Of a stretch of DNA of 64,000 nt, positions 5,414-12,583 are shown piece by piece (the stretch's first letter is position 1; the number at the start of each line of letters is the position of its first letter). Source of the stretch: Patescibacteria group bacterium (GTDB lineage Bacteria > Patescibacteriota > SICC01); assembly GCA_040902515.1 (NCBI GenBank), contig JBBDXB010000006.1:130219-194218 (forward strand), written 5' to 3'. Under the pieces are notes generated by a model that was not told the origin of the DNA, searched no databases, and worked only from the letters and a program-made list of their open reading frames with translations. Position numbers and translations under genes: made by a program.

Positions 5414-7234
5414 TCAGGCGAACGGATGAGGTGTGGTGGGCCCGTAGTCAGAGAAGTCAATTCTCCTGCCCAACACGCGATCATCGATTTGTATTGTTTC
5501 GCCGGCGCGCGACATTCCGTACGGCTCCTGATCATAGCCAAAGGTAATCGGCAAGAGTCCAGGGATGAACGCCCGGACGACATGGAGACCCTCAGAAAGC
5601 GGCAGCGTCAAATCGACTACCACCGGCTCCGAGACCACCGAACCGATCTGCGACAACTTGCCCACGTGGCCATGGACATCCTGCAGATCAGTCAGTTCCG
5701 TTGAGCTGTGAAGGAACGCGGCACCTTCAGCAACCGTGCTGTCAGTATACAGCTTCTGATGGTCAGTCGCCGAATGCACATCCTCCAACTGTATCTCTTC
5801 TTCTGGCTGGAAGAGATCACCACCCCACAAGACCGAACCGGCCTCGTAAAGCGCTTTTCGAGCAGCGCTCTCTGCGTCAAAGGCACACCCACTACCGAGA
5901 ATGAGTGTCCGCTTGGTATGGACGGCGCAGAGAATCACCGGCAACGTCTCGAGCGTCAGATTGACGAAATCAGCACTGTAGCCGACTTGGTTCAACCTCT
6001 CTAGCCACGGGCTGAACTCCTCTGGAAGTGATTCCGCACTGATGCGCTCACGCGAAACCCGTTGCAGCCAGGTCCACATATACGCATCACGCTCAATGAC
6101 CTCAAAAACCGCTCGCTTTATCGCCTCGTCGTAAGACGTATGTGCGGCAATGCCCGAGCTATTCGAAGCCGCTAGACTACTTCCAGGAAACGGGAACAGC
6201 GTCAGCTCGGCGGGGACCCAGCGAGCGGAACCACTCAACGTCTTCCCCTCGATCCAATGGTACGGACGTGAGGGCTCGTATTTGTGCAGAGATAAGTTGG
6301 ACCGGTACTGACGCTCATTGAACTTAATCAACGATCGAGGGTCGCACACCGGAGCTGGCAACTCACCCTCGGTTCCGGATTGGAGCTGACGCTCCGCTAC
6401 CTCCCCACTTACGAAACGCTCAGTAGCCTCGGCATAGGCGATGACGCGAGCCTCAGCTGCCGTGGATGCCAGCCCCATACAGGCCGCGTCCTTATGATCC
6501 TCAGCGAAAAGCAGGTTCGGACACGCATACTTGCTACTGCAGAGGTGAACGCCCAGCGACCGCGAAAGGTCACTCGTATTCACAACCGTGTACCGAACGA
6601 TGCCCAACCGGGAATCATTTTGCCACCCTCGCAGAACTTTGTTTCGCTCTATCGAGGTGACTTTGAGATCAGGAAGGTCGACTACGTGAACCATATCCTC
6701 ATCCCATTCCTGCGACTGCTCAACCACCTGCGCCAAGAGGGCTCTCGGGGGCTGGTCACCGACCACGGTGACTTCCTCGCTTCCGGCACAATAGCCGTAG
6801 GCATACAACCGCTCCTCCGGCTCGATGTTGGCGATGAACGCCCTCACTGCGCGTTTGGTAAGCGCAGCATCGGCTCCGACTGGCAACACCAGCACCTCCT
6901 CGGCCGTAGTAACGAACCGAGAGACCTTGTTATTGCCCACCAGCCGAACTATGGCGTCTCCGAGGGGGGTCACCTCATCCGGCAGTGGTTCTTCGGAGCT
7001 GCGACCTTCCCGGATGAATCCCGCATCGAGTAGCGCTGTGGTTAACTGAGCTTCTTTCTGGGAATCAAGTCCGATCGACTGTAATGCGTCAAACCCTGAT
7101 TTGAAGAGTTTCAGCATCTTCATCTTGCTGTCATGAGGGAGGTTGAACTTCAGTCGACTAGTCGACTCTGGTGAAATGAACACCAAACCCTCCCCCGTCA
7201 CACCGCACAGGTGCGACAACGGCAGGATATACAT
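5414..7234 (-). CDS. YcaO-domain cyclodehydratase (TOMM 'D' protein) with about 230-aa N-terminal extension
   Basis: Hallmark YcaO motifs: SNSSGIAAHTSYDEAIKRAVFEVIERDAYMW and GSGCAFDAESAARKALYEAGS. 606 aa. The start sits 1 nt after the SagB stop, suggesting translational coupling. Confidence 0.85.
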   Translation of the reverse strand: MYILPLSHLCGVTGEGLVFISPESTSRLKFNLPHDSKMKMLKLFKSGFDALQSIGLDSQKEAQLTTALLDAGFIREGRSSEEPLPDEVTPLGDAIVRLVGNNKVSRFVTTAEEVLVLPVGADAALTKRAVRAFIANIEPEERLYAYGYCAGSEEVTVVGDQPPRALLAQVVEQSQEWDEDMVHVVDLPDLKVTSIERNKVLRGWQNDSRLGIVRYTVVNTSDLSRSLGVHLCSSKYACPNLLFAEDHKDAACMGLASTAAEARVIAYAEATERFVSGEVAERQLQSGTEGELPAPVCDPRSLIKFNERQYRSNLSLHKYEPSRPYHWIEGKTLSGSARWVPAELTLFPFPGSSLAASNSSGIAAHTSYDEAIKRAVFEVIERDAYMWTWLQRVSRERISAESLPEEFSPWLERLNQVGYSADFVNLTLETLPVILCAVHTKRTLILGSGCAFDAESAARKALYEAGSVLWGGDLFQPEEEIQLEDVHSATDHQKLYTDSTVAEGAAFLHSSTELTDLQDVHGHVGKLSQIGSVVSEPVVVDLTLPLSEGLHVVRAFIPGLLPITFGYDQEPYGMSRAGETIQIDDRVLGRRIDFSDYGPTTPHPFA

Positions 7235-7235
7235 A

Positions 7236-8186
7236 TCAACCTCCAGTAATGATGGTTAGTAATGGAACAACCTCCTCGGACAGCTCGAGAAATTCCTGAG
7301 TCTCTCGGTCGAGGAACCCCCCGATCGGGCGCATCTTCACACCCAGCTCCGCTGCAGCCAGCATGGCATTCTGCATCGCCGCACCAGCCTCGAGGAGTAC
7401 GTACCGATAGGCCCGGTTACCATACTTCTGGGCACTTCGGTCCAGGTCGGCCGAGATAAAAATTACAACCTGGCCCTGACTGAGCAGCTCGTCAGTCGGT
7501 TCGGCGTTCAGCATGATGGTGAAAACATCCTGCTTGGCCGGGTTGACCGACTGAAGCATCCCGGTCTCTACGTTGAACCACCAGAGACCCCGATTCAGGC
7601 CGTCGATCTGACCGTGTGCGGCCACGTGGATGACTAGCGGATAAAGAGCGCCGCCAGAAGGGACAGTCCGGTGTCCGCTCTCGGTAAACCCGTACGTGGC
7701 ACGGACGATTCCAGATAGCGATTGAAGCGTCAGCTTGGTTCCAGAGTCCTCCGGATACGCCGACGACCTTTGCGCAAGCAGACGCGCCAGCTCTAGGCCT
7801 GAATCGGGAGTCTCCAGCACCTTGCCGGCATTACTCGGCTCCCAACGAGGCGCCGCCGTGATGGCAGCAATTTCCTCATCGGTACGAGGCTCAAAGAACG
7901 GATTTTCTCCGTTTGAGCTGGCCCGGTGAAAGAAGCGGAACGCCTGAGTGCAATCAGCGACCACACCCAACTGCTTAAGCTTTTTAAGAAGCTCGAGAAT
8001 ATCCTCTCGCTCCCCAGGCCACTGACTGAGAATATCATCCGACATCCTGGTTCCGTCGCAAAGCTCCAGAACCTGCTCAGCCAAACCGACCTCGTTGCCC
8101 TCGAGCACTACCTCTACTGCTCCCGACTGAAGGACAAGCTTGCCGTCTTCATGCCGGACTACCGCCAGAAGCAGCGGCCGATTCAT
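7236..8186 (-). CDS. SagB-type FMN-dependent dehydrogenase (TOMM 'B' protein, nitroreductase fold)
   Basis: PSGGALYP signature of SagB/McbC-type dehydrogenases and a nitroreductase-like C-terminus (RYVLLEAGAAMQNAMLAAAELGVKMRPIGGF). Strong RBS AAGGAGG before the ATG. Confidence 0.85.
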   Translation of the reverse strand: MNRPLLLAVVRHEDGKLVLQSGAVEVVLEGNEVGLAEQVLELCDGTRMSDDILSQWPGEREDILELLKKLKQLGVVADCTQAFRFFHRASSNGENPFFEPRTDEEIAAITAAPRWEPSNAGKVLETPDSGLELARLLAQRSSAYPEDSGTKLTLQSLSGIVRATYGFTESGHRTVPSGGALYPLVIHVAAHGQIDGLNRGLWWFNVETGMLQSVNPAKQDVFTIMLNAEPTDELLSQGQVVIFISADLDRSAQKYGNRAYRYVLLEAGAAMQNAMLAAAELGVKMRPIGGFLDRETQEFLELSEEVVPLLTIITGG

Positions 8187-8356: not shown

Positions 8357-9181
8357 TCACTCACTAAAGTACCGGACTGCTGCTTCTGGATCCTCCGCAC
8401 GCATGAGATGCTCACCGATCAGGACTCCGTCCACGCCGGCGTTACGGAGTTCCGACAAAAGCGCCCGCGACGCTTCGTCCACCTGGAAGCCGCTTTCCGT
8501 TACCACCAACGTCCCGTCAGGAACCTCGCCGAGCAACGTTGCCGTGAGTCCTGTGTCGGTCGTGAGTTCCGGGTCGCGCAGATTCCGGTTGTTCACTCCG
8601 ATGATCTTGGGTCGAACGGCCACGGCGCGTTCCAGTTCTTCGGCGTCGTGTACTTCGACTAGGACATCAAGCCCGATTGAGTCCGCATACTCACTCAGTC
8701 GCGAAAGCTCATCGTCTTCAAGCGCTCCCACGATCAGCAATGCGGCATCGGCGCCGGCTGCCTTTGCCTCAAGAAGCTGATAGTGGTCAGTGATGAAGTC
8801 CTTCCGCAACAAGGGCAGGTCGGTCACCTCCCGGCCTTTCCGGAGGTGATCGAGCGAACCCCCGAAACGGGTCTCCTCCGTGAGTAGCGAAATAGCCCGA
8901 GCCCCGCCCCATTCGTAGGCGGCAATGGTCTCCACGACTCCCCAGTCTTCCCGAATCATCCCTCTGCTTGGAGATCGACGCTTGTGCTCCGCAATGACCG
9001 ACAACCCGGGACGACCCAGGGCGTCCGCGAAAGACCCTTCCCGATTCCGCCAGCGCTCCGCCTTGGCGAACAGCTCCGACTCCCCGACCTCGCGTTTTCG
9101 GACCATTGCTTGTTCGCGCGACGATGCCGAGAGTTTCTCAAGTATGGGGACGGGCTTTTCCATGGCAAACCAGCGTATCAC
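8357..9181 (-). CDS. trpC: indole-3-glycerol phosphate synthase
   Basis: IAEHKRRSPSRG...LLRKDF...GADAALLI...VLVEVH...IGVNNRNL: classic IGPS motifs. Confidence 0.85.
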   Translation of the reverse strand: MIRWFAMEKPVPILEKLSASSREQAMVRKREVGESELFAKAERWRNREGSFADALGRPGLSVIAEHKRRSPSRGMIREDWGVVETIAAYEWGGARAISLLTEETRFGGSLDHLRKGREVTDLPLLRKDFITDHYQLLEAKAAGADAALLIVGALEDDELSRLSEYADSIGLDVLVEVHDAEELERAVAVRPKIIGVNNRNLRDPELTTDTGLTATLLGEVPDGTLVVTESGFQVDEASRALLSELRNAGVDGVLIGEHLMRAEDPEAAVRYFSE

Positions 9182-9400
9182 GCCCCGCCGGTAACTCGAC
9201 AGATATCCAGATTAGTAATGCTCCCCAGTCGGGTCTGGAACCTTTACGGCTAGACCATTGAAACGTTTTCAGTGTCTCACAATTCGAACCGATCAGGCAT
9301 GGAATGGGACAAATGGAACGCCATGATTGCTGAGTGAGGTGAGATACGAGCAAGTTCGCCAGTCTCAGAAAATCGACTATGGCCTAGACCCTGCTCACCT

Positions 9401-9430
9401 TTTACACAAAACACTCCCTAACTGTATAAT
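9401..9430 (+). promoter_or_regulatory. strong sigma70-like promoter giving a near-leaderless helicase transcript
   Basis: -35 TTTACA (9401-9406), 18-nt spacer, extended -10 TGTATAAT (9423-9430). The ATG is at 9439, only about 8 nt after the -10, so there is no room for an SD. Confidence 0.5.
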
Positions 9431-9438
9431 AGCGCGCT

Positions 9439-11892
9439 ATGAACAAGTCAGAGCCACGAGAACATGAAGTTGATTATACCGAGGTTTTTACCGATAGTCT
9501 TATTAATCCCGAAGTAGCGCCGGAATTAGACCAGGTACAGGAAGATTGTTTAAGAGAAATCGCATACGCACGTGATCAAGGGGAGCAGCGTGCATTAGTT
9601 GTGCTCGCATCCGGCATGGGTAAAACAAGAATTGCCGCGAAAGACGTGTCTAATTTCTTTATCGAAAACCCTAATAGTCGCGTATTGTACCTGTGCCACC
9701 AGAACGAGATACTCAGGCAGGCTGAGCAAGAATTTCGCGGAGTCCTCGGATCCCCTCATAGCTACGGCCAGTTTGCCGGACATGAAAAGGAGTTTGATGA
9801 AGTCAACTGCCTATTCGCTTCTTTCCAGACTATGCGAGATTGGAAGGATGCGTTCCTACCGGAAGAGTTTGACTACATTATAGTCGACGAGGGTCATCAC
9901 AGCGCTGCCAAAACATATCAACCAGTCTTGGAATATTTTAATCCGCGGTTCGCCCTCGGTTTAACTGCGACCCCTGATCGTGGCGATCTCAAGGACATCC
10001 GAGCGATTTTCGGACCTGAACGTTACTCTATGCCACTTGAAGAGGCATTAGCAGAAGGACACCTGGCTCGAATAGACTACCGTCTAATGGCTGATGAAAT
10101 CGATTGGGATGAAGTCCGGAAAGCAGCAGAAGGCCATGTAACAATGGCAGATCTTAATCGACGAGTATTCATTGAACACCGAGATGAAGAAATCGTCGGA
10201 GTAATAGACAAACACCGGGCAGAGCTAGATGGGGCAAAAGTCATGGTCTTCTGCCCTTCAATCGCTTACTGCGATCGTTTGGCGGAAGTAATGCCCGATG
10301 CCGTGACAATTCATTCGGCATTATCGGCCGGAGAGCAGCGTTTGAAACTTGAAGATTTTCGAAGTGGTCTAATCAATACAGTAGTAACTGTTGATAAATT
10401 CAATGAGGGCATAGACATCCCCGATGCGAATTTAGTTGTTTTTCTACGATCCACCGCGTCTAAGAACATATTCATCCAACAGCTCGGACGTGGCTTACGC
10501 AAGACACCTGAAAAGCAAGGGGTGCGTATTCTTGATTTTGTAAATAATCTTGAGCGCATGGAGCTCATCGACGAACTATGGCGAGATGTCACCGAACGAT
10601 ACCGGCGCATGCACGGCACAGCAGAACAAGAAGCGCTCGTTGTGGATATTGGAACCGTAAGCTTCGAAGAAATCAACAAAGACCTTCAGGAGGTTTTGGA
10701 ACTGCTCAGACAGGGTTACACCAAGGAAAAACTTGTGGGCCAACTGCTCGCTTTAGCCGAAGAGTTAGGTAAATCACCATCAATCCCAGATATTCGACGA
10801 GCCCAAGAAGAGAAGCGCTGCGCAAGCCCGGGCACGTTCGCCAGGCATTTTGGCTCTTATAACAAGGCGCTCGAAGCGGCCGGTCTGGAGTCACGTGCGA
10901 AGCCACCTTCATACACAACTGAAGAACTAGTCCAACAGCTCACTAACCTCGCTAATGAGCTGGGGGTTACTCCCCTGGTCAGCGATATCGATAGCGCACA
11001 TGAAGAAGGAATATGTGCTAGTACCGATGTCTTTCGGTCACGCTTTGGCTCACTACGACAAGCTCGCGAGGCGGCTGAACTAGAGGCGACTGAGTGGAGA
11101 AGGTACTCAGATCACGAGTTGCTGGAACAACTTACTCAGCTTACGGAGGAACTCGGTCATGCCCCTACGAGTAGTGACATTAACCGAGCTTTCGATGAAG
11201 GTAGGACTGCAAGTATCGACACCTTTCATCGTCGGTTCGGGACACTGGCAGAAGCCCACAAGATTGCGAGGGTCTTCGATAAACGCACTCACCGACTCAG
11301 TGATCAGCAACTACTTAGTCAGCTCAAGCAGTTGCATGAAGTAGAAGGGCGTCCGCTAAACCGCGTTGACCTCGCTGAAGCACGTCGTGAAGGTCGAGGC
11401 CCGAGTCCCCAATTGCTTGTGAAACGATTTGGCTCGACACCGGAGGCGCTACGTCGAGCAGGTATTCCTCTACGCATCCCGGCACACCGGAAATTTGGAA
11501 CAACAGAGTTCACCGAGGAAGATCTTATCCAGCGACTCGTGGCCTATAGCGAGGAGTTGGGACGAGTCCCAAGTCAAAGCGAGTTGGTTGATGCGTCAAA
11601 ACAAGGAAAGTGTCCCAATGCTTCGGTCTTCGCCAGACACTTTGGAACATACAATAAAGCAGTTAAGGCAGCTGGCCTGAAACCAGTTGCGGAGAAACCA
11701 AGTTACACAGACGATGAGCTGCTTGAGCAGTTGCGTAGCCTTGCAAAAGAACTTGGTTCTATTCCCACTAAGAACCAAGTCAAGGAACTTTCTAAACGGG
11801 GAAAGTGCGCGACCAGCACAACTTTTATTAAAAGGTTCGGCACATTTGAAGAAGCGCTACAACTCGCAGACATTCATCTGAAAGACTCTTGA
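9439..11892 (+). CDS. SF2 DExH-box helicase (ResIII-like) fused to 7 tandem homing-endonuclease-associated repeats (HEAR)
   Basis: Walker A LASGMGKT, motif II DEGHH, and helicase C-terminal motifs (QQLGRGLR). These are followed by seven roughly 55-aa repeats of the form E(E/Q)LLxQLxxLAxELGxxP...D...G.....T....FGSxxxALxxAGL. Lower GC than the surrounding genes. Confidence 0.8.
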   Translation: MNKSEPREHEVDYTEVFTDSLINPEVAPELDQVQEDCLREIAYARDQGEQRALVVLASGMGKTRIAAKDVSNFFIENPNSRVLYLCHQNEILRQAEQEFRGVLGSPHSYGQFAGHEKEFDEVNCLFASFQTMRDWKDAFLPEEFDYIIVDEGHHSAAKTYQPVLEYFNPRFALGLTATPDRGDLKDIRAIFGPERYSMPLEEALAEGHLARIDYRLMADEIDWDEVRKAAEGHVTMADLNRRVFIEHRDEEIVGVIDKHRAELDGAKVMVFCPSIAYCDRLAEVMPDAVTIHSALSAGEQRLKLEDFRSGLINTVVTVDKFNEGIDIPDANLVVFLRSTASKNIFIQQLGRGLRKTPEKQGVRILDFVNNLERMELIDELWRDVTERYRRMHGTAEQEALVVDIGTVSFEEINKDLQEVLELLRQGYTKEKLVGQLLALAEELGKSPSIPDIRRAQEEKRCASPGTFARHFGSYNKALEAAGLESRAKPPSYTTEELVQQLTNLANELGVTPLVSDIDSAHEEGICASTDVFRSRFGSLRQAREAAELEATEWRRYSDHELLEQLTQLTEELGHAPTSSDINRAFDEGRTASIDTFHRRFGTLAEAHKIARVFDKRTHRLSDQQLLSQLKQLHEVEGRPLNRVDLAEARREGRGPSPQLLVKRFGSTPEALRRAGIPLRIPAHRKFGTTEFTEEDLIQRLVAYSEELGRVPSQSELVDASKQGKCPNASVFARHFGTYNKAVKAAGLKPVAEKPSYTDDELLEQLRSLAKELGSIPTKNQVKELSKRGKCATSTTFIKRFGTFEEALQLADIHLKDS

Positions 11893-12469
11893 AAAGTCTA
11901 GTGGAGTTGCAACACAGACAAGCAAACTTTCTCGAAAGAAGGATTAGTCGGGTTGGGAACCCTCTTTTCGAGGCCGCTTTGGGCTTTCTTAACCTTCACC
12001 CCTAAGCATGCTCGGGTTGGTGACTGGATTGCGGATTATTCGCGACCGTTGAGAGATTTCTTGAGCTGGTTCTACACCGTCCCTATTGGCTCCGGGTCTG
12101 GGACAACGTTAGAACCTACTTCAAAAGCACAGCAGCGGTTCGTTCGTAGAGCTTCGCTACGGCTTCTCCGTTTTGAACACGGTGATTAAACTCCGTCAGC
12201 GTTTCGCCATTCAGCTGATCATATAGTGTGTCGTACATCAAAACAGCCAGGAGCGGCTCCCACCGATCCCGCGAATATGCCGACTCAAGTGCACCCATTG
12301 AACAACGCGCCTTTCCATGACTGCTCATACCGCTAACTCGCCAGCCATAGGTTCGTATATAGAGCGCGGCCTTCCGGAAGATTTTGGCTGACCGACTTTT
12401 TAACGGTGGTGAAATCATGACTTGATTACATGGCATAGCGTCGTAGTTTATTAATGTTGCTTGCTCCGG

Positions 12470-12543
12470 GACAGGGATTCGAACCCCGATTACCAGATTC
12501 AGAGTCTGGCGTCCTACCATTAGACGATCCCGGAATGGGCCGT
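12470..12543 (-). tRNA. tRNA-Gln (CTG)
   Basis: Cloverleaf: acceptor TCCGGGA/TCCCGGA, anticodon stem CCAGA/TCTGG, loop CTCTGAA, T-loop GGTTCGAATCC. Confidence 0.8.
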
Positions 12544-12583
12544 ATGCGACCTCTTCCTAGTGTAAAGAATCCCGGGCGGTTAT

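What the first reader, a model, noticed from the sequence alone, without database searches (positions are those of the whole stretch)
9439..11892. SF2 DExH helicase fused to seven homing-endonuclease-associated repeats without any nuclease domain
The N-terminal about 400 aa is a ResIII/DEAD-like helicase core (GMGKT, DEGHH, QxxGRxxR). The C-terminal about 400 aa is seven tandem copies of a roughly 55-aa module with the pattern ELLxQLxxLAxELGxxP...D...G.....T....FGSxxxALxxAGL. That module is typical of repeats normally attached to HNH/GIY-YIG homing endonucleases. Here they are attached to a helicase, so they may be DNA-targeting or DNA-recognition repeats recruited for a different enzymatic output. 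Candidate functions include a defence or anti-defence factor or a mobile-element maintenance protein.
Basis: partly seen in the sequence, partly recalled or inferred. Interest (0 to 1): 0.6.

Follow-up and report, generated by a model that had tools for sequence, protein, structure and literature searches.

The report
Nuclease-free helicase with six HEAR repeats
This gene from a candidate-phyla (Patescibacteria) bacterium encodes a DNA motor protein with a tail of six small helical repeats; it belongs to a large, unstudied family that shows no defence-gene context, and relatives are repeatedly fused to, or sit next to, the RNA polymerase sigma factor, which hints at a role in transcription.

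Summary
The ORF at 9439-11892(+) is real (817 aa). It has an intact SF2 ATPase core and six PF18780 "homing endonuclease associated" (HEAR) repeats, not seven, and no nuclease domain. It is not unusual: all 120 best homologs, mostly from Patescibacteria/CPR, share the architecture, with 2-8 repeats. Among the 150 strongest HEAR proteins in 1.84 billion representatives, most are bare arrays (73) or helicase fusions (about 43); few carry nucleases. The closest solved relative of the motor is the Type IV restriction enzyme SauUSI, followed by RadD and XPB. The PLD nuclease and DUF3427 reader of SauUSI are absent, and the HEAR array sits where SauUSI has its target-recognition domain. Sister CPR helicases carry INT_rpt repeats, DUF4379 zinc fingers or a sigma-70 at that position. 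There is no conserved partner gene and no defence-island signal. Sigma-70 is fused in three geometries and is directly adjacent in two further genomes. Some copies lie in prophage-like elements, and the window copy sits in a low-GC tract next to tRNA-Gln. Best reading: a nuclease-free double-strand DNA translocase anchored to DNA by a multivalent repeat array, possibly acting with RNA polymerase. Function is inferred, not shown. Interest is moderate.

The parts
9401..9430 (+). Sigma-70-type promoter-like site, TTTACA-18 nt-TATAAT. The -10 hexamer ends 8 nt before the ATG, which implies a leaderless or nearly leaderless mRNA.
   Evidence: 11 of 12 consensus matches; sequence. This is a consensus match only. 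The number of such sites in the region is not above the shuffle expectation.
9439..11892 (+). Complete ORF of 817 aa: helicase-HEAR fusion protein (NCBI MEX2209582.1 / MEX2429797.1, 'DEAD/DEAH box helicase family protein').
9523..9981 (+). SF2 RecA-like lobe 1 (ResIII, aa 29-181) with motif I GMGKT (aa 59-63), motif II DEGHH (aa 150-154) and motif III TATPDR (aa 176-181).
   Evidence: E 2.6e-34; invariant residues; confident AlphaFold model.
10222..10500 (+). SF2 RecA-like lobe 2 (Helicase_C, aa 262-354) with motif VI QQLGRGLR (aa 347-354).
10549..10713 (+). Helical connector (aa 371-425: long helix, short strand, helix). It aligns with the start of the alpha-helical coupler that follows the ATPase in SauUSI.
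   Evidence: query 10-451 aligns to 7clg 203-642; secondary structure; SauUSI domain order. Equivalence to the coupler is inferred.
10717..10890 (+). HEAR repeat 1 (aa 427-484).
   Evidence: four-helix unit with pLDDT above 90.
10912..11085 (+). HEAR repeat 2 (aa 492-549).
11104..11277 (+). HEAR repeat 3 (aa 556-613).
11296..11469 (+). HEAR repeat 4 (aa 620-677), the most divergent and most basic repeat (pI 10.7).
11488..11502 (+). 'RKFGT' stretch in the spacer between repeats 4 and 5.
   Evidence: motif scan; low pLDDT at aa 683-685. The relic status is inference.
11509..11682 (+). HEAR repeat 5 (aa 691-748).
11704..11877 (+). HEAR repeat 6 (aa 756-813).
11950..11972 (+). Terminator-like hairpin (GGGTT-GGG-AACCC) followed by a T-rich tail, about 58 nt after the stop codon. 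Together with the promoter it suggests a monocistronic unit.
   Evidence: Pattern match only.
9150..12550 (.). Low-GC tract (0.45-0.55, against about 0.60-0.65 in the flanks). It holds only the helicase gene and a small DUF6197 ORF (12116-12418, - strand) and ends at tRNA-Gln(CTG) (12463-12534, - strand). It may be a horizontally acquired islet.
   Evidence: GC; tRNA; DUF6197, E 7e-8. No att-like direct repeats and no integrase were found, so acquisition is inferred from composition only.

Best explanation
The gene encodes a stand-alone, nuclease-free, ATP-driven double-strand DNA translocase of the SauUSI/RadD/XPB branch of SF2.

Its C-terminal half is a flexible string of six small four-helix HEAR modules. 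This array occupies the position of the target-recognition domain in SauUSI and most likely binds DNA multivalently. The array would anchor or target the enzyme on DNA. The motor would then pull DNA relative to that anchor, or push along it, to remodel or displace protein-DNA complexes rather than cut DNA.

The likeliest client is the transcription machinery (sigma-70/RNA polymerase at promoters). The family is patchily distributed and horizontally mobile in CPR bacteria and their prophages.

Shown here: the domain content, intact ATPase motifs, absence of a nuclease, the family's architecture and contexts, and the sigma-70 fusions and adjacencies.

Inferred: DNA binding by HEAR, translocation on double-strand DNA, and the link to transcription.
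For: Motor:
- All SF2 motifs are intact and invariant across 58 homologs.
- The closest solved proteins are double-strand DNA translocases or repair helicases. By sequence: SauUSI 7clg (E 3e-54), RadD, XPB, a Type I R subunit. By structure: SauUSI (E 1.6e-22), RadD, LlaBIII, XPB/Ssl2.
- SauUSI is a directional DNA translocase activated by its TRD (PMC7913695).

Array as the DNA-targeting module:
- It follows the coupler-like helices, where SauUSI has its TRD.
- Sister CPR helicases (36-45% identity) carry INT_rpt repeats, DUF4379 zinc fingers or sigma-70 regions 2-4 at the same place.
- HEAR partners elsewhere are HNH, DUF559, MTES_1575 and Endo I nucleases, other helicases, sigma-70 and WhiB.
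- The arrays are basic family-wide, with a median pI of 9.6.
- The helix 1-turn-helix 2 signature 'LxxELGRxPTxxDI' repeatedly gives sub-threshold hits to the sigma region 3 and LexA helix-turn-helix motifs.
- The most variable positions (23, 24, 27, 28, 38, 39, 42) lie on helices 2 and 3.
- Copy number varies from 2 to 8 between close relatives.

Stand-alone gene:
- It has its own promoter-like and terminator-like sites.
- No neighbour is conserved across 43 loci.

Transcription link:
- Sigma-70 is fused in three geometries, each confirmed in independent assemblies.
- A separate sigma-70 gene lies directly upstream (L138) or directly downstream (L139) on the same strand.
- About 4 of 41 CPR loci are fused or adjacent. 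A rough binomial test gives p = 2.6e-4.
- The window protein's core clusters with the sigma-fused P0035 and P0159.
Against: - No experiment exists for any HEAR repeat or for any member of this helicase family. Literature searches found nothing.
- The HEAR fold has no significant match in the PDB (best E 0.8), so DNA binding is inferred from context only.
- The window's own array is only weakly basic (pI 7.9), and two repeats are acidic (pI 4.4 and 5.4).
- The window has no sigma-70 gene within 64 kb, and about 90% of the loci show no sigma association.
- The RNase III/dsRBD fusion could point to RNA rather than DNA.
- Prophage and mobile-element contexts, the phrog_16 'DNA helicase' match and the low-GC tract fit a role in mobile-element replication or recombination equally well.
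- The binomial estimate rests on an assumed sigma-gene density and a small sample that is not fully independent.
Confidence: 0.5

Rival explanations
1. It is a replication, recombination or maintenance helicase of a mobile element or prophage. The HEAR array would target the element's own DNA (origin, ends or repeats), and chromosomal copies would be remnants or domesticated cargo.
For: - IMG/VR contig L051 has the order integrase, SocA/Panacea, two tandem helicase-6xHEAR genes, C5 and N6/N4 methylases, small terminase.
- P0109 sits next to RusA, a large serine recombinase and a methyltransferase.
- P0159 and P0190 lie near TrwB-like coupling proteins.
- The core matches phrog_16 'DNA helicase' (E 6.5e-63) and the array matches phrog_22655.
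- 2023 phage records hold a related core.
- BFVD holds HEAR-like folds in phage proteins.
- The window copy lies in a low-GC tract next to tRNA-Gln, with a DUF6197 ORF.
Against: - Most chromosomal loci sit among housekeeping genes with no integrase, recombinase, terminase or methylase among the 25 most frequent families.
- The window tract has no integrase and no att repeats.
- Only 1 of 80 related viral loci carries HEAR repeats.
- No cultured phage record covers the full-length protein.
Confidence: 0.25
2. It is a degenerate or split Type IV (SauUSI-like) restriction or defence component. The motor plus a DNA reader would sense foreign DNA and work with a nuclease encoded elsewhere, or block invaders by translocation alone.
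For: - The best PADLOC hit is mREase_IV (E 1e-54), and the best PDB hit is SauUSI.
- Relatives in Bifidobacterium and in Bacilli/Bacillales MAGs have the full PLD-helicase-DUF3427 layout.
- CglI/NgoAVII show that the motor and nuclease can be separate subunits (PMC7913695).
- Variable repeat number, and tandem paralogs with different arrays (L016, L031, L051), resemble diversifying conflict genes.
Against: - The PADLOC and PDB matches cover only the helicase core. The PLD nuclease and the DUF3427/SRA reader are absent.
- No nuclease or other partner is conserved nearby.
- Only 2 of 86 neighbours hit the listed PADLOC families, all UvrD-type models.
- Sigma-70 fusions and adjacency are not expected for a restriction enzyme.
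Confidence: 0.12
3. It is a DNA-repair or replication-restart helicase analogous to RadD or archaeal XPB. The HEAR array would replace the accessory domains that bind SSB, Bax1 or branched DNA.
For: - RadD and XPB are the next-best sequence and structure matches.
- Some loci sit beside AddA-like UvrD-PDDEXK, RmuC, PriA, RecG or DinB genes.
Against: - NCBIfam scores are far below the family cut-offs (RadD 87 against 720; XPB 58 against 610).
- The repair-gene neighbours are not conserved.
- The patchy distribution, variable arrays and prophage copies are atypical of core repair genes.
Confidence: 0.08
4. It is an RNA helicase or RNA-remodelling enzyme, and the HEAR repeats bind structured RNA.
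For: - Fusion with RNase III and a dsRNA-binding domain in P0106/P0109.
- Weak similarity to DEAD-box C-terminal lobes.
Against: - The motif II sequence is DEGHH, and the nearest relatives are DNA translocases.
- The known partners of HEAR are DNA enzymes.
- The DEAD-box hits are weak and limited to the generic second lobe.
Confidence: 0.05

Closest known systems
[quoted passage not shown]
   Same: It is the closest solved relative of the SF2 motor by sequence (E 3e-54, query aa 10-451 to chain 203-642) and by structure (E 1.6e-22). It is likewise a single polypeptide with motor, helical connector and C-terminal DNA-recognition region in that order.
   Different: The window protein has no N-terminal PLD nuclease and no DUF3427/SRA reader of 5-methylcytosine. 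The C-terminus is instead six HEAR repeats. It therefore cannot cut DNA by the SauUSI mechanism, and nothing suggests that it reads DNA modification.
HEAR-containing homing-type nucleases (PF18780 with HNH PF01844/PF14279, DUF559, MTES_1575 or Endo I)
   Same: They share the same ~55-aa four-helix repeat in tandem arrays.
   Different: The catalytic partner here is an ATPase motor, not a nuclease. In the database the nuclease-linked form is a minority among the strongest HEAR proteins.
XPB/Ssl2 of TFIIH, and archaeal XPB
   Same: They share an SF2 double-strand DNA translocase fold and are high structural matches. The sigma-70 fusions and adjacency in this family recall XPB's role beside the initiation machinery; XPB's role is from established knowledge.
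   Different: The NCBIfam XPB score is 58 against a cut-off of 610. The XPB N-terminal damage-recognition and thumb features were not detected, and no TFIIH-like partners are present. The analogy is functional speculation only.
RadD (E. coli DNA repair helicase)
   Same: It is the second-best PDB match over the two RecA lobes (E 1e-20; Foldseek rmsd about 5.3 A over about 370 residues).
   Different: The NCBIfam RadD score is 87 against a cut-off of 720. The RadD zinc finger and C-terminal SSB-binding domain (known from the literature) are replaced by HEAR repeats.
Sister CPR helicases with INT_rpt (PF14882), DUF4379 (PF14311) or sigma-70 C-termini
   Same: They share the same motor at 36-54% identity, the same layout, and the same variable-copy tandem-module logic.
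   Different: The C-terminal module is unrelated. A profile comparison of HEAR against INT_rpt gives only 43% probability, and DUF4379 is a zinc finger.
Phage 'DNA helicase' family phrog_16
   Same: The core matches at E 6.5e-63, and related cores occur in 2023 phage records.
   Different: No cultured-phage record in the search covered the HEAR array.

Membership tests
SF2 helicase/translocase superfamily | Two RecA-like lobes with Walker A (motif I), DExH (motif II), motif III and the arginine-finger motif VI. | tested here: met
   ResIII E 2.6e-34 and Helicase_C E 3.5e-15. GMGKT, DEGHH, TATPDR and QQLGRGLR are present and invariant or nearly so in 58 homologs. The model is confident.
Pfam PF18780 HNH_repeat (homing endonuclease associated repeat) | Score above the Pfam gathering threshold (26 bits), with tandem units of about 54 aa. 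| tested here: met
   240.1 bits, E 1.7e-72, six stretches.
SauUSI-type Type IV restriction endonuclease | N-terminal PLD-family nuclease with an HxK motif. | tested here: not met
   No PLDc hit. The protein starts 28 residues before the ATPase. PADLOC mREase_IV matches only model positions 220-606 of 953.
SauUSI-type Type IV restriction endonuclease | C-terminal DUF3427/SRA-like target-recognition domain. | tested here: not met
   There is no DUF3427 hit here, whereas the Bifidobacterium and Bacilli/Bacillales relatives have it.
SauUSI-type Type IV restriction endonuclease | SF2 ATPase followed by an alpha-helical coupler. | tested here: inconclusive
   The ATPase is met. The sequence alignment extends to query aa 451 / chain 642 and helices span aa 371-425, but the coupler boundaries were not mapped residue by residue.
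Homing endonuclease (HNH, GIY-YIG, LAGLIDADG) | A nuclease catalytic domain. | tested here: not met
   No HNH or GIY-YIG hit. LAGLIDADG_3 reaches only 14.5 bits against a cut-off of 22.5, and the hit lies inside repeat 6.
Known anti-phage defence system (PADLOC-DB v2) | Full-length match to a defence protein model, together with the system's partner genes nearby. | tested here: not met
   Only helicase-core matches were found. No neighbour is conserved. Two of 86 neighbours hit the listed PADLOC families, all UvrD-type models.
RadD / XPB / Type I R subunit (NCBIfam equivalogs) | Score above the curated equivalog cut-off. | tested here: not met
   RadD 87 against 720; XPB 58 against 610; EcoAI R subunit 104 against 550.
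Sigma-70-linked subgroup of this helicase family | Sigma-70 regions fused in the same polypeptide, or a sigma-70 gene directly adjacent. | tested here: not met
   The protein has no sigma regions, and tblastn with the sigma-70 part of P0035 finds no match anywhere in the 64-kb window. However, its core clusters with the sigma-fused P0035 and P0159.
DNA-binding repeat array (functional class) | Direct binding of the HEAR unit to DNA. | not testable with these tools
   Only indirect evidence exists: partner domains, basic pI family-wide, and sub-threshold HTH-like signatures. No solved structural homolog was found.

The most novel reading that the evidence does not exclude
This CPR helicase family may be a sigma-70/RNA-polymerase-associated promoter-DNA translocase, a bacterial functional analogue of the XPB subunit of TFIIH. 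The C-terminal array (HEAR, INT_rpt, zinc fingers, or sigma itself) would anchor the motor near promoters, and ATP-driven DNA translocation would help open or clear initiation complexes. That would make transcription initiation partly ATP-dependent in some ultra-small bacteria and their phages.
Probability: 0.15. Interest if true: 0.85.

Novelty: new variant of a known kind. Interest (0 to 1): 0.45.

Why it matters
Taken alone, the gene is one ordinary member of a large family that is already deposited but has only a generic annotation, so the original framing as an odd exception to nuclease-linked repeats does not hold.

The family matters for three reasons.

1. It shows a SauUSI-type DNA motor that has lost its nuclease and exchanges its DNA-recognition tail among at least four unrelated modules.
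2. HEAR repeats have no solved structure or assay, and they turn out to be mainly stand-alone or helicase-linked arrays. That makes them a candidate programmable or multivalent DNA-binding scaffold worth characterising.
3. The repeated fusion and adjacency with sigma-70 gives a concrete, testable hypothesis about transcription in CPR bacteria, whose basic molecular biology is almost unexplored.

Tried and rejected
- **Integrated island bounded by att repeats at tRNA-Gln.** Only short chance-level repeats were found, and no integrase. I kept only 'low-GC tract'.
- **Recent DNA-level duplication of the repeats.** Tandem Repeats Finder found nothing, and the repeats are 24-53% identical at the protein level.
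- **HEAR and INT_rpt as one superfamily.** hhalign gave 43% probability over 23 columns, so I treat them as unrelated.
- **Literature.** I found no paper on the 'homing endonuclease associated repeat'. PF18780 appears only in a table of modelled repeat families. The polyvalent-protein paper does not mention it. I found no paper on sigma-helicase fusions in CPR.
- **Conserved operon partner.** All-against-all clustering of 802 neighbour ORFs found none. That clustering missed divergent sigma genes, which were recovered later with a sigma profile.
- **Positional orthology of repeats.** It is weak; only repeat 1 tends to match first repeats in homologs.
- **Single-protein scan of viral contigs.** It found nothing. 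The alignment-based scan found 80 loci, of which one carries HEAR repeats.
Full report
**1. Observation**

The window has one long ORF at exactly 9439..11892 on the + strand, 817 aa. Pfam assigns ResIII to aa 29-181 (E 2.6e-34), Helicase_C to aa 262-354 (E 3.5e-15) and PF18780 HNH_repeat, the 'homing endonuclease associated repeat' (HEAR), with E 1.7e-72 in six stretches.

They are invariant or nearly so in an alignment of 58 homologs: K62/T63, D150-E151-x-H153-H154, T178/R181 and Q348-x-G350-R351-x-x-R354. The ATPase is therefore very probably active.

No nuclease domain is detectable. The only nuclease-type hit is a sub-threshold LAGLIDADG_3 match that lies inside a repeat.

There are six repeats, not seven: aa 427-484, 492-549, 556-613, 620-677, 691-748 and 756-813. 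A short 'RKFGT' in the spacer between repeats 4 and 5 probably caused the miscount. The repeats are 24-53% identical to each other, and there is no DNA-level tandem repeat. The array is therefore ancient, not a recent expansion.

**2. Structure**

AlphaFold2 with 58 homologs gives a confident model (mean pLDDT 87). It shows a two-lobe SF2 core, a helical connector at aa 371-425, and six separate four-helix units (helices of about 15, 9, 8 and 7 residues) joined by lower-confidence linkers, like beads on a string. A two-repeat fragment models at pLDDT 94.7.

The full model is closest to SauUSI (7CLG, E 1.6e-22), followed by RadD, the Type ISP enzyme LlaBIII and XPB/Ssl2 in TFIIH complexes. The sequence search ranks the same proteins: 7clg E 3e-54, RadD 1e-20, XPB about 1e-17 and a Type I R subunit 7e-15.

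**3. What the motor resembles, and what is missing**

According to the structural paper on SauUSI, the enzyme consists of a PLD nuclease (1-191), a linker, an SF2 ATPase, an alpha-helical coupler and an SRA-like target-recognition domain (TRD). Target recognition switches on ATP hydrolysis and directional translocation on DNA (PMC7913695).

The window protein aligns with residues 203-642 of that chain, which is the ATPase and the start of the coupler. PADLOC's mREase_IV model matches only positions 220-606 of 953. The protein lacks both the nuclease and the DUF3427 reader.

Relatives in Bifidobacterium and in Bacilli/Bacillales MAGs, found in the same scan, do have the full PLD-helicase-DUF3427 layout. 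The window protein is therefore a nuclease-free relative of that motor, with the HEAR array at the TRD position. NCBIfam scores are far below the cut-offs for RadD, XPB and EcoAI-R, so it is not a member of those families.

**4. The family**

The protein is deposited as MEX2209582.1 / MEX2429797.1, 'DEAD/DEAH box helicase family protein', from a Patescibacteria MAG.

All 120 best homologs (35-48% identity) carry both the helicase and PF18780. Those with names come mostly from Patescibacteria/CPR MAGs such as Colwellbacteria, Saccharimonadales, Andersenbacteria and Komeilibacteria. Repeat number ranges from 2 to 8, with a mode of 4, and it changes between close relatives.

Helicases in the same CPR clade carry other C-terminal tandem modules instead:
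- INT_rpt (PF14882), 3-8 copies
- DUF4379 treble-clef zinc fingers, about 4 copies
- sigma-70 regions 2-4

HEAR and INT_rpt are not demonstrably related. On a neighbour-joining tree of 208 cores, the array type mostly follows clades. For 144 of 146 HEAR proteins the nearest neighbour is also a HEAR protein, and a few switches occur.

**5. Where HEAR repeats normally occur**

A profile of the six window repeats was searched against 1.84 billion representatives. It finds 5,328 proteins at E <= 0.001 and 2,045 at E <= 1e-10.

Of the 150 strongest, about 31 are helicase fusions already seen here. Of the other 119:
- 12 are further helicase fusions
- 73 are bare arrays
- 34 have an extra region of at least 80 aa

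Those 34 include HNH (4), DUF559 (3), MTES_1575 (2), phage endonuclease I (1), sigma-70 (1), WhiB (1) and a 2,237-aa protein with a different helicase and 16 repeats.

The helicase fusion is therefore a main architecture of this repeat and not an exception. Every identified partner acts on DNA.

The arrays are basic family-wide (median pI 9.6). In the window protein the array has pI 7.9 and the core pI 4.8.

The conserved 'LxxLAxELGRxPTxxDI' stretch (helix 1-turn-helix 2) gives recurring sub-threshold hits to the helix-turn-helix motifs of Sigma70_r3 and LexA. Its best PDB sequence match, which is not significant (E 0.9), is the sigma-A region 3 HTH.

The most variable positions (8, 12, 23, 24, 27, 28, 32, 38, 39, 42, 44) lie mainly on the exposed faces of helices 2 and 3. 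Together these observations make DNA binding the best inference, but it is not shown.

**6. Genomic context**

*In the window*
- The gene has a near-consensus promoter-like site (TTTACA-18-TATAAT) that ends 8 nt before the ATG. A hairpin with a T-tract follows 58 nt after the stop codon. This suggests a leaderless, monocistronic unit.
- The gene lies in a low-GC tract (about 0.45-0.55 against about 0.62) running from the end of trpC to tRNA-Gln. The tract also holds a small DUF6197 ORF.
- There is no integrase and no att repeats.

*Across 43 species-representative loci*
- No neighbour is conserved.
- The neighbours of 13 HEAR-helicase loci are ordinary housekeeping genes.
- Only 2 of 86 neighbours hit the listed PADLOC families, all UvrD-type models.
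- Further long-contig contexts are also housekeeping.

The defence-island idea is therefore not supported.

*Mobile-element contexts do exist*
- A prophage-like IMG/VR contig has two tandem helicase-6xHEAR genes between an integrase/SocA pair and DNA methylases/small terminase.
- P0109 lies beside RusA, a large serine recombinase and a methyltransferase.
- P0159 and P0190 lie near TrwB-like coupling proteins.
- The core matches phrog_16 'DNA helicase' and the array matches phrog_22655.

**7. The sigma-70 link**

Sigma-70 is fused to this helicase in three geometries:
- (A) sigma (regions 1.2-4) N-terminal to the helicase, with or without HEAR: P0035/L005, L019, P0159
- (B) helicase followed by sigma regions 2-4 at the array position: a clade of about ten, P0180-P0198
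- (C) helicase-HEAR-sigma-RNase III-dsRBD: P0106/P0109

The fusions are real ORFs. P0109 recurs identically in three assemblies, P0035 in two NCBI MAGs plus a Logan assembly, and P0189 on seven contigs.

I also looked up three HEAR-helicases on long contigs, chosen without regard to sigma. In two of them a separate sigma-70 gene of about 508 aa is directly adjacent on the same strand:
- 222 nt upstream in L138, beside fmt/def/priA
- 151 nt downstream in L139, near parAB

These two arrangements match fusion orders (A) and (C).

About 4 of 41 CPR loci are fused or adjacent. A rough binomial estimate gives p = 2.6e-4. It assumes about 3 sigma genes per 800 genes, and that figure is my assumption.

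The associations fall at several separate places on the core tree. The window protein clusters with P0002, the sigma-fused P0035, and P0159. However, the window itself has no sigma-70 gene, and most loci show no association.

**8. Interpretation**

The best-supported reading is a stand-alone, nuclease-free double-strand DNA translocase tethered to DNA by a multivalent HEAR array at the TRD position. It would remodel or displace protein-DNA complexes rather than cut DNA (confidence about 0.5).

The most attractive client is the sigma-70/RNA polymerase initiation complex. An XPB-like role has a probability of about 0.15.

Rivals:
- a mobile-element or prophage replication/recombination helicase (0.25)
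- a split or degenerate Type IV defence component (0.12)
- a RadD/XPB-like repair helicase (0.08)
- an RNA helicase (0.05)

These are not fully exclusive. A phage or chromosomal transcription accessory factor would satisfy both the first explanation and the first rival.

**9. Novelty and score**

The gene is an ordinary member of a large family that is already deposited with only a generic annotation. I found no publication on the repeat or on the architecture.

Relative to characterised systems, it is a new variant of the SauUSI-type motor: it has lost the nuclease and swapped the recognition module. Interest is moderate (0.45). The modular tail swapping and the recurrent sigma-70 link are unexpected and testable.

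Noticed in passing
window 5414-8186 (- strand): A YcaO cyclodehydratase gene (606 aa) lies directly next to a SagB-type nitroreductase-family dehydrogenase gene (316 aa). This is the core of an azoline/thiazole-oxazole RiPP pathway and is unexpected in a reduced Patescibacteria genome. I did not look for a precursor peptide. The region also has below-average GC (0.54-0.58).
   Followed up: partly
window 12116-12418 (- strand): A small ORF of about 100 aa matches DUF6197 (E 7e-8) and weakly matches phrog_16237. It sits between the helicase gene and tRNA-Gln in the same low-GC tract. The mechanical ORF call (12116-12520) overlaps the tRNA, so the true start is probably the internal ATG.
   Followed up: partly
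window 9401-9439: The -10 hexamer of the near-consensus promoter ends only 8 nt before the start codon, and there is no Shine-Dalgarno sequence. This implies a leaderless mRNA for the helicase gene.
   Followed up: no
window 12463-61603: All 11 tRNA genes in the 64-kb window are on the minus strand, scattered singly or in pairs.
   Followed up: no
L014:15866-19972: A Saccharibacteria MAG encodes a 1,369-aa protein that fuses an unrelated DEAH/HA2-type helicase to sigma-70 regions 2-4 and a DnaA C-terminal HTH. It lies 4.3 kb downstream of that genome's HEAR-helicase. Sigma-helicase fusion therefore recurs in CPR with a second helicase family.
   Followed up: partly
L016:7242-11818; L031:6861-11587; L051:4294-9263: These loci hold tandem paralogous copies of the helicase. 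In L016 the two copies have different tails (INT_rpt and DUF4379 zinc fingers), and in L051 both have six HEAR repeats. Pfam listed no helicase domain for the first L016 copy, although it clusters with the family.
   Followed up: partly
P0291 (2237 aa), P0248 (1074 aa, 15 repeats), P0249 (864 aa, 13 repeats): Some HEAR arrays are very long. P0291 combines a different ResIII/Helicase_C helicase with 16 HEAR repeats in the middle of a 2,237-aa protein.
   Followed up: no
P0129, P0138 (Halorubrum, Haloparvum): Bare HEAR-array proteins also occur in cultured haloarchaea. These might be tractable organisms for testing what the repeat binds.
   Followed up: no
L131:1-3184 and L133:1-1836: In two sigma-helicase fusion loci a TrwB-like (type IV coupling protein) gene lies a few kb upstream. 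In L131 it is preceded by another Sigma70_r4/HARE-HTH protein. This could be a conjugative or DNA-uptake element context.
   Followed up: no
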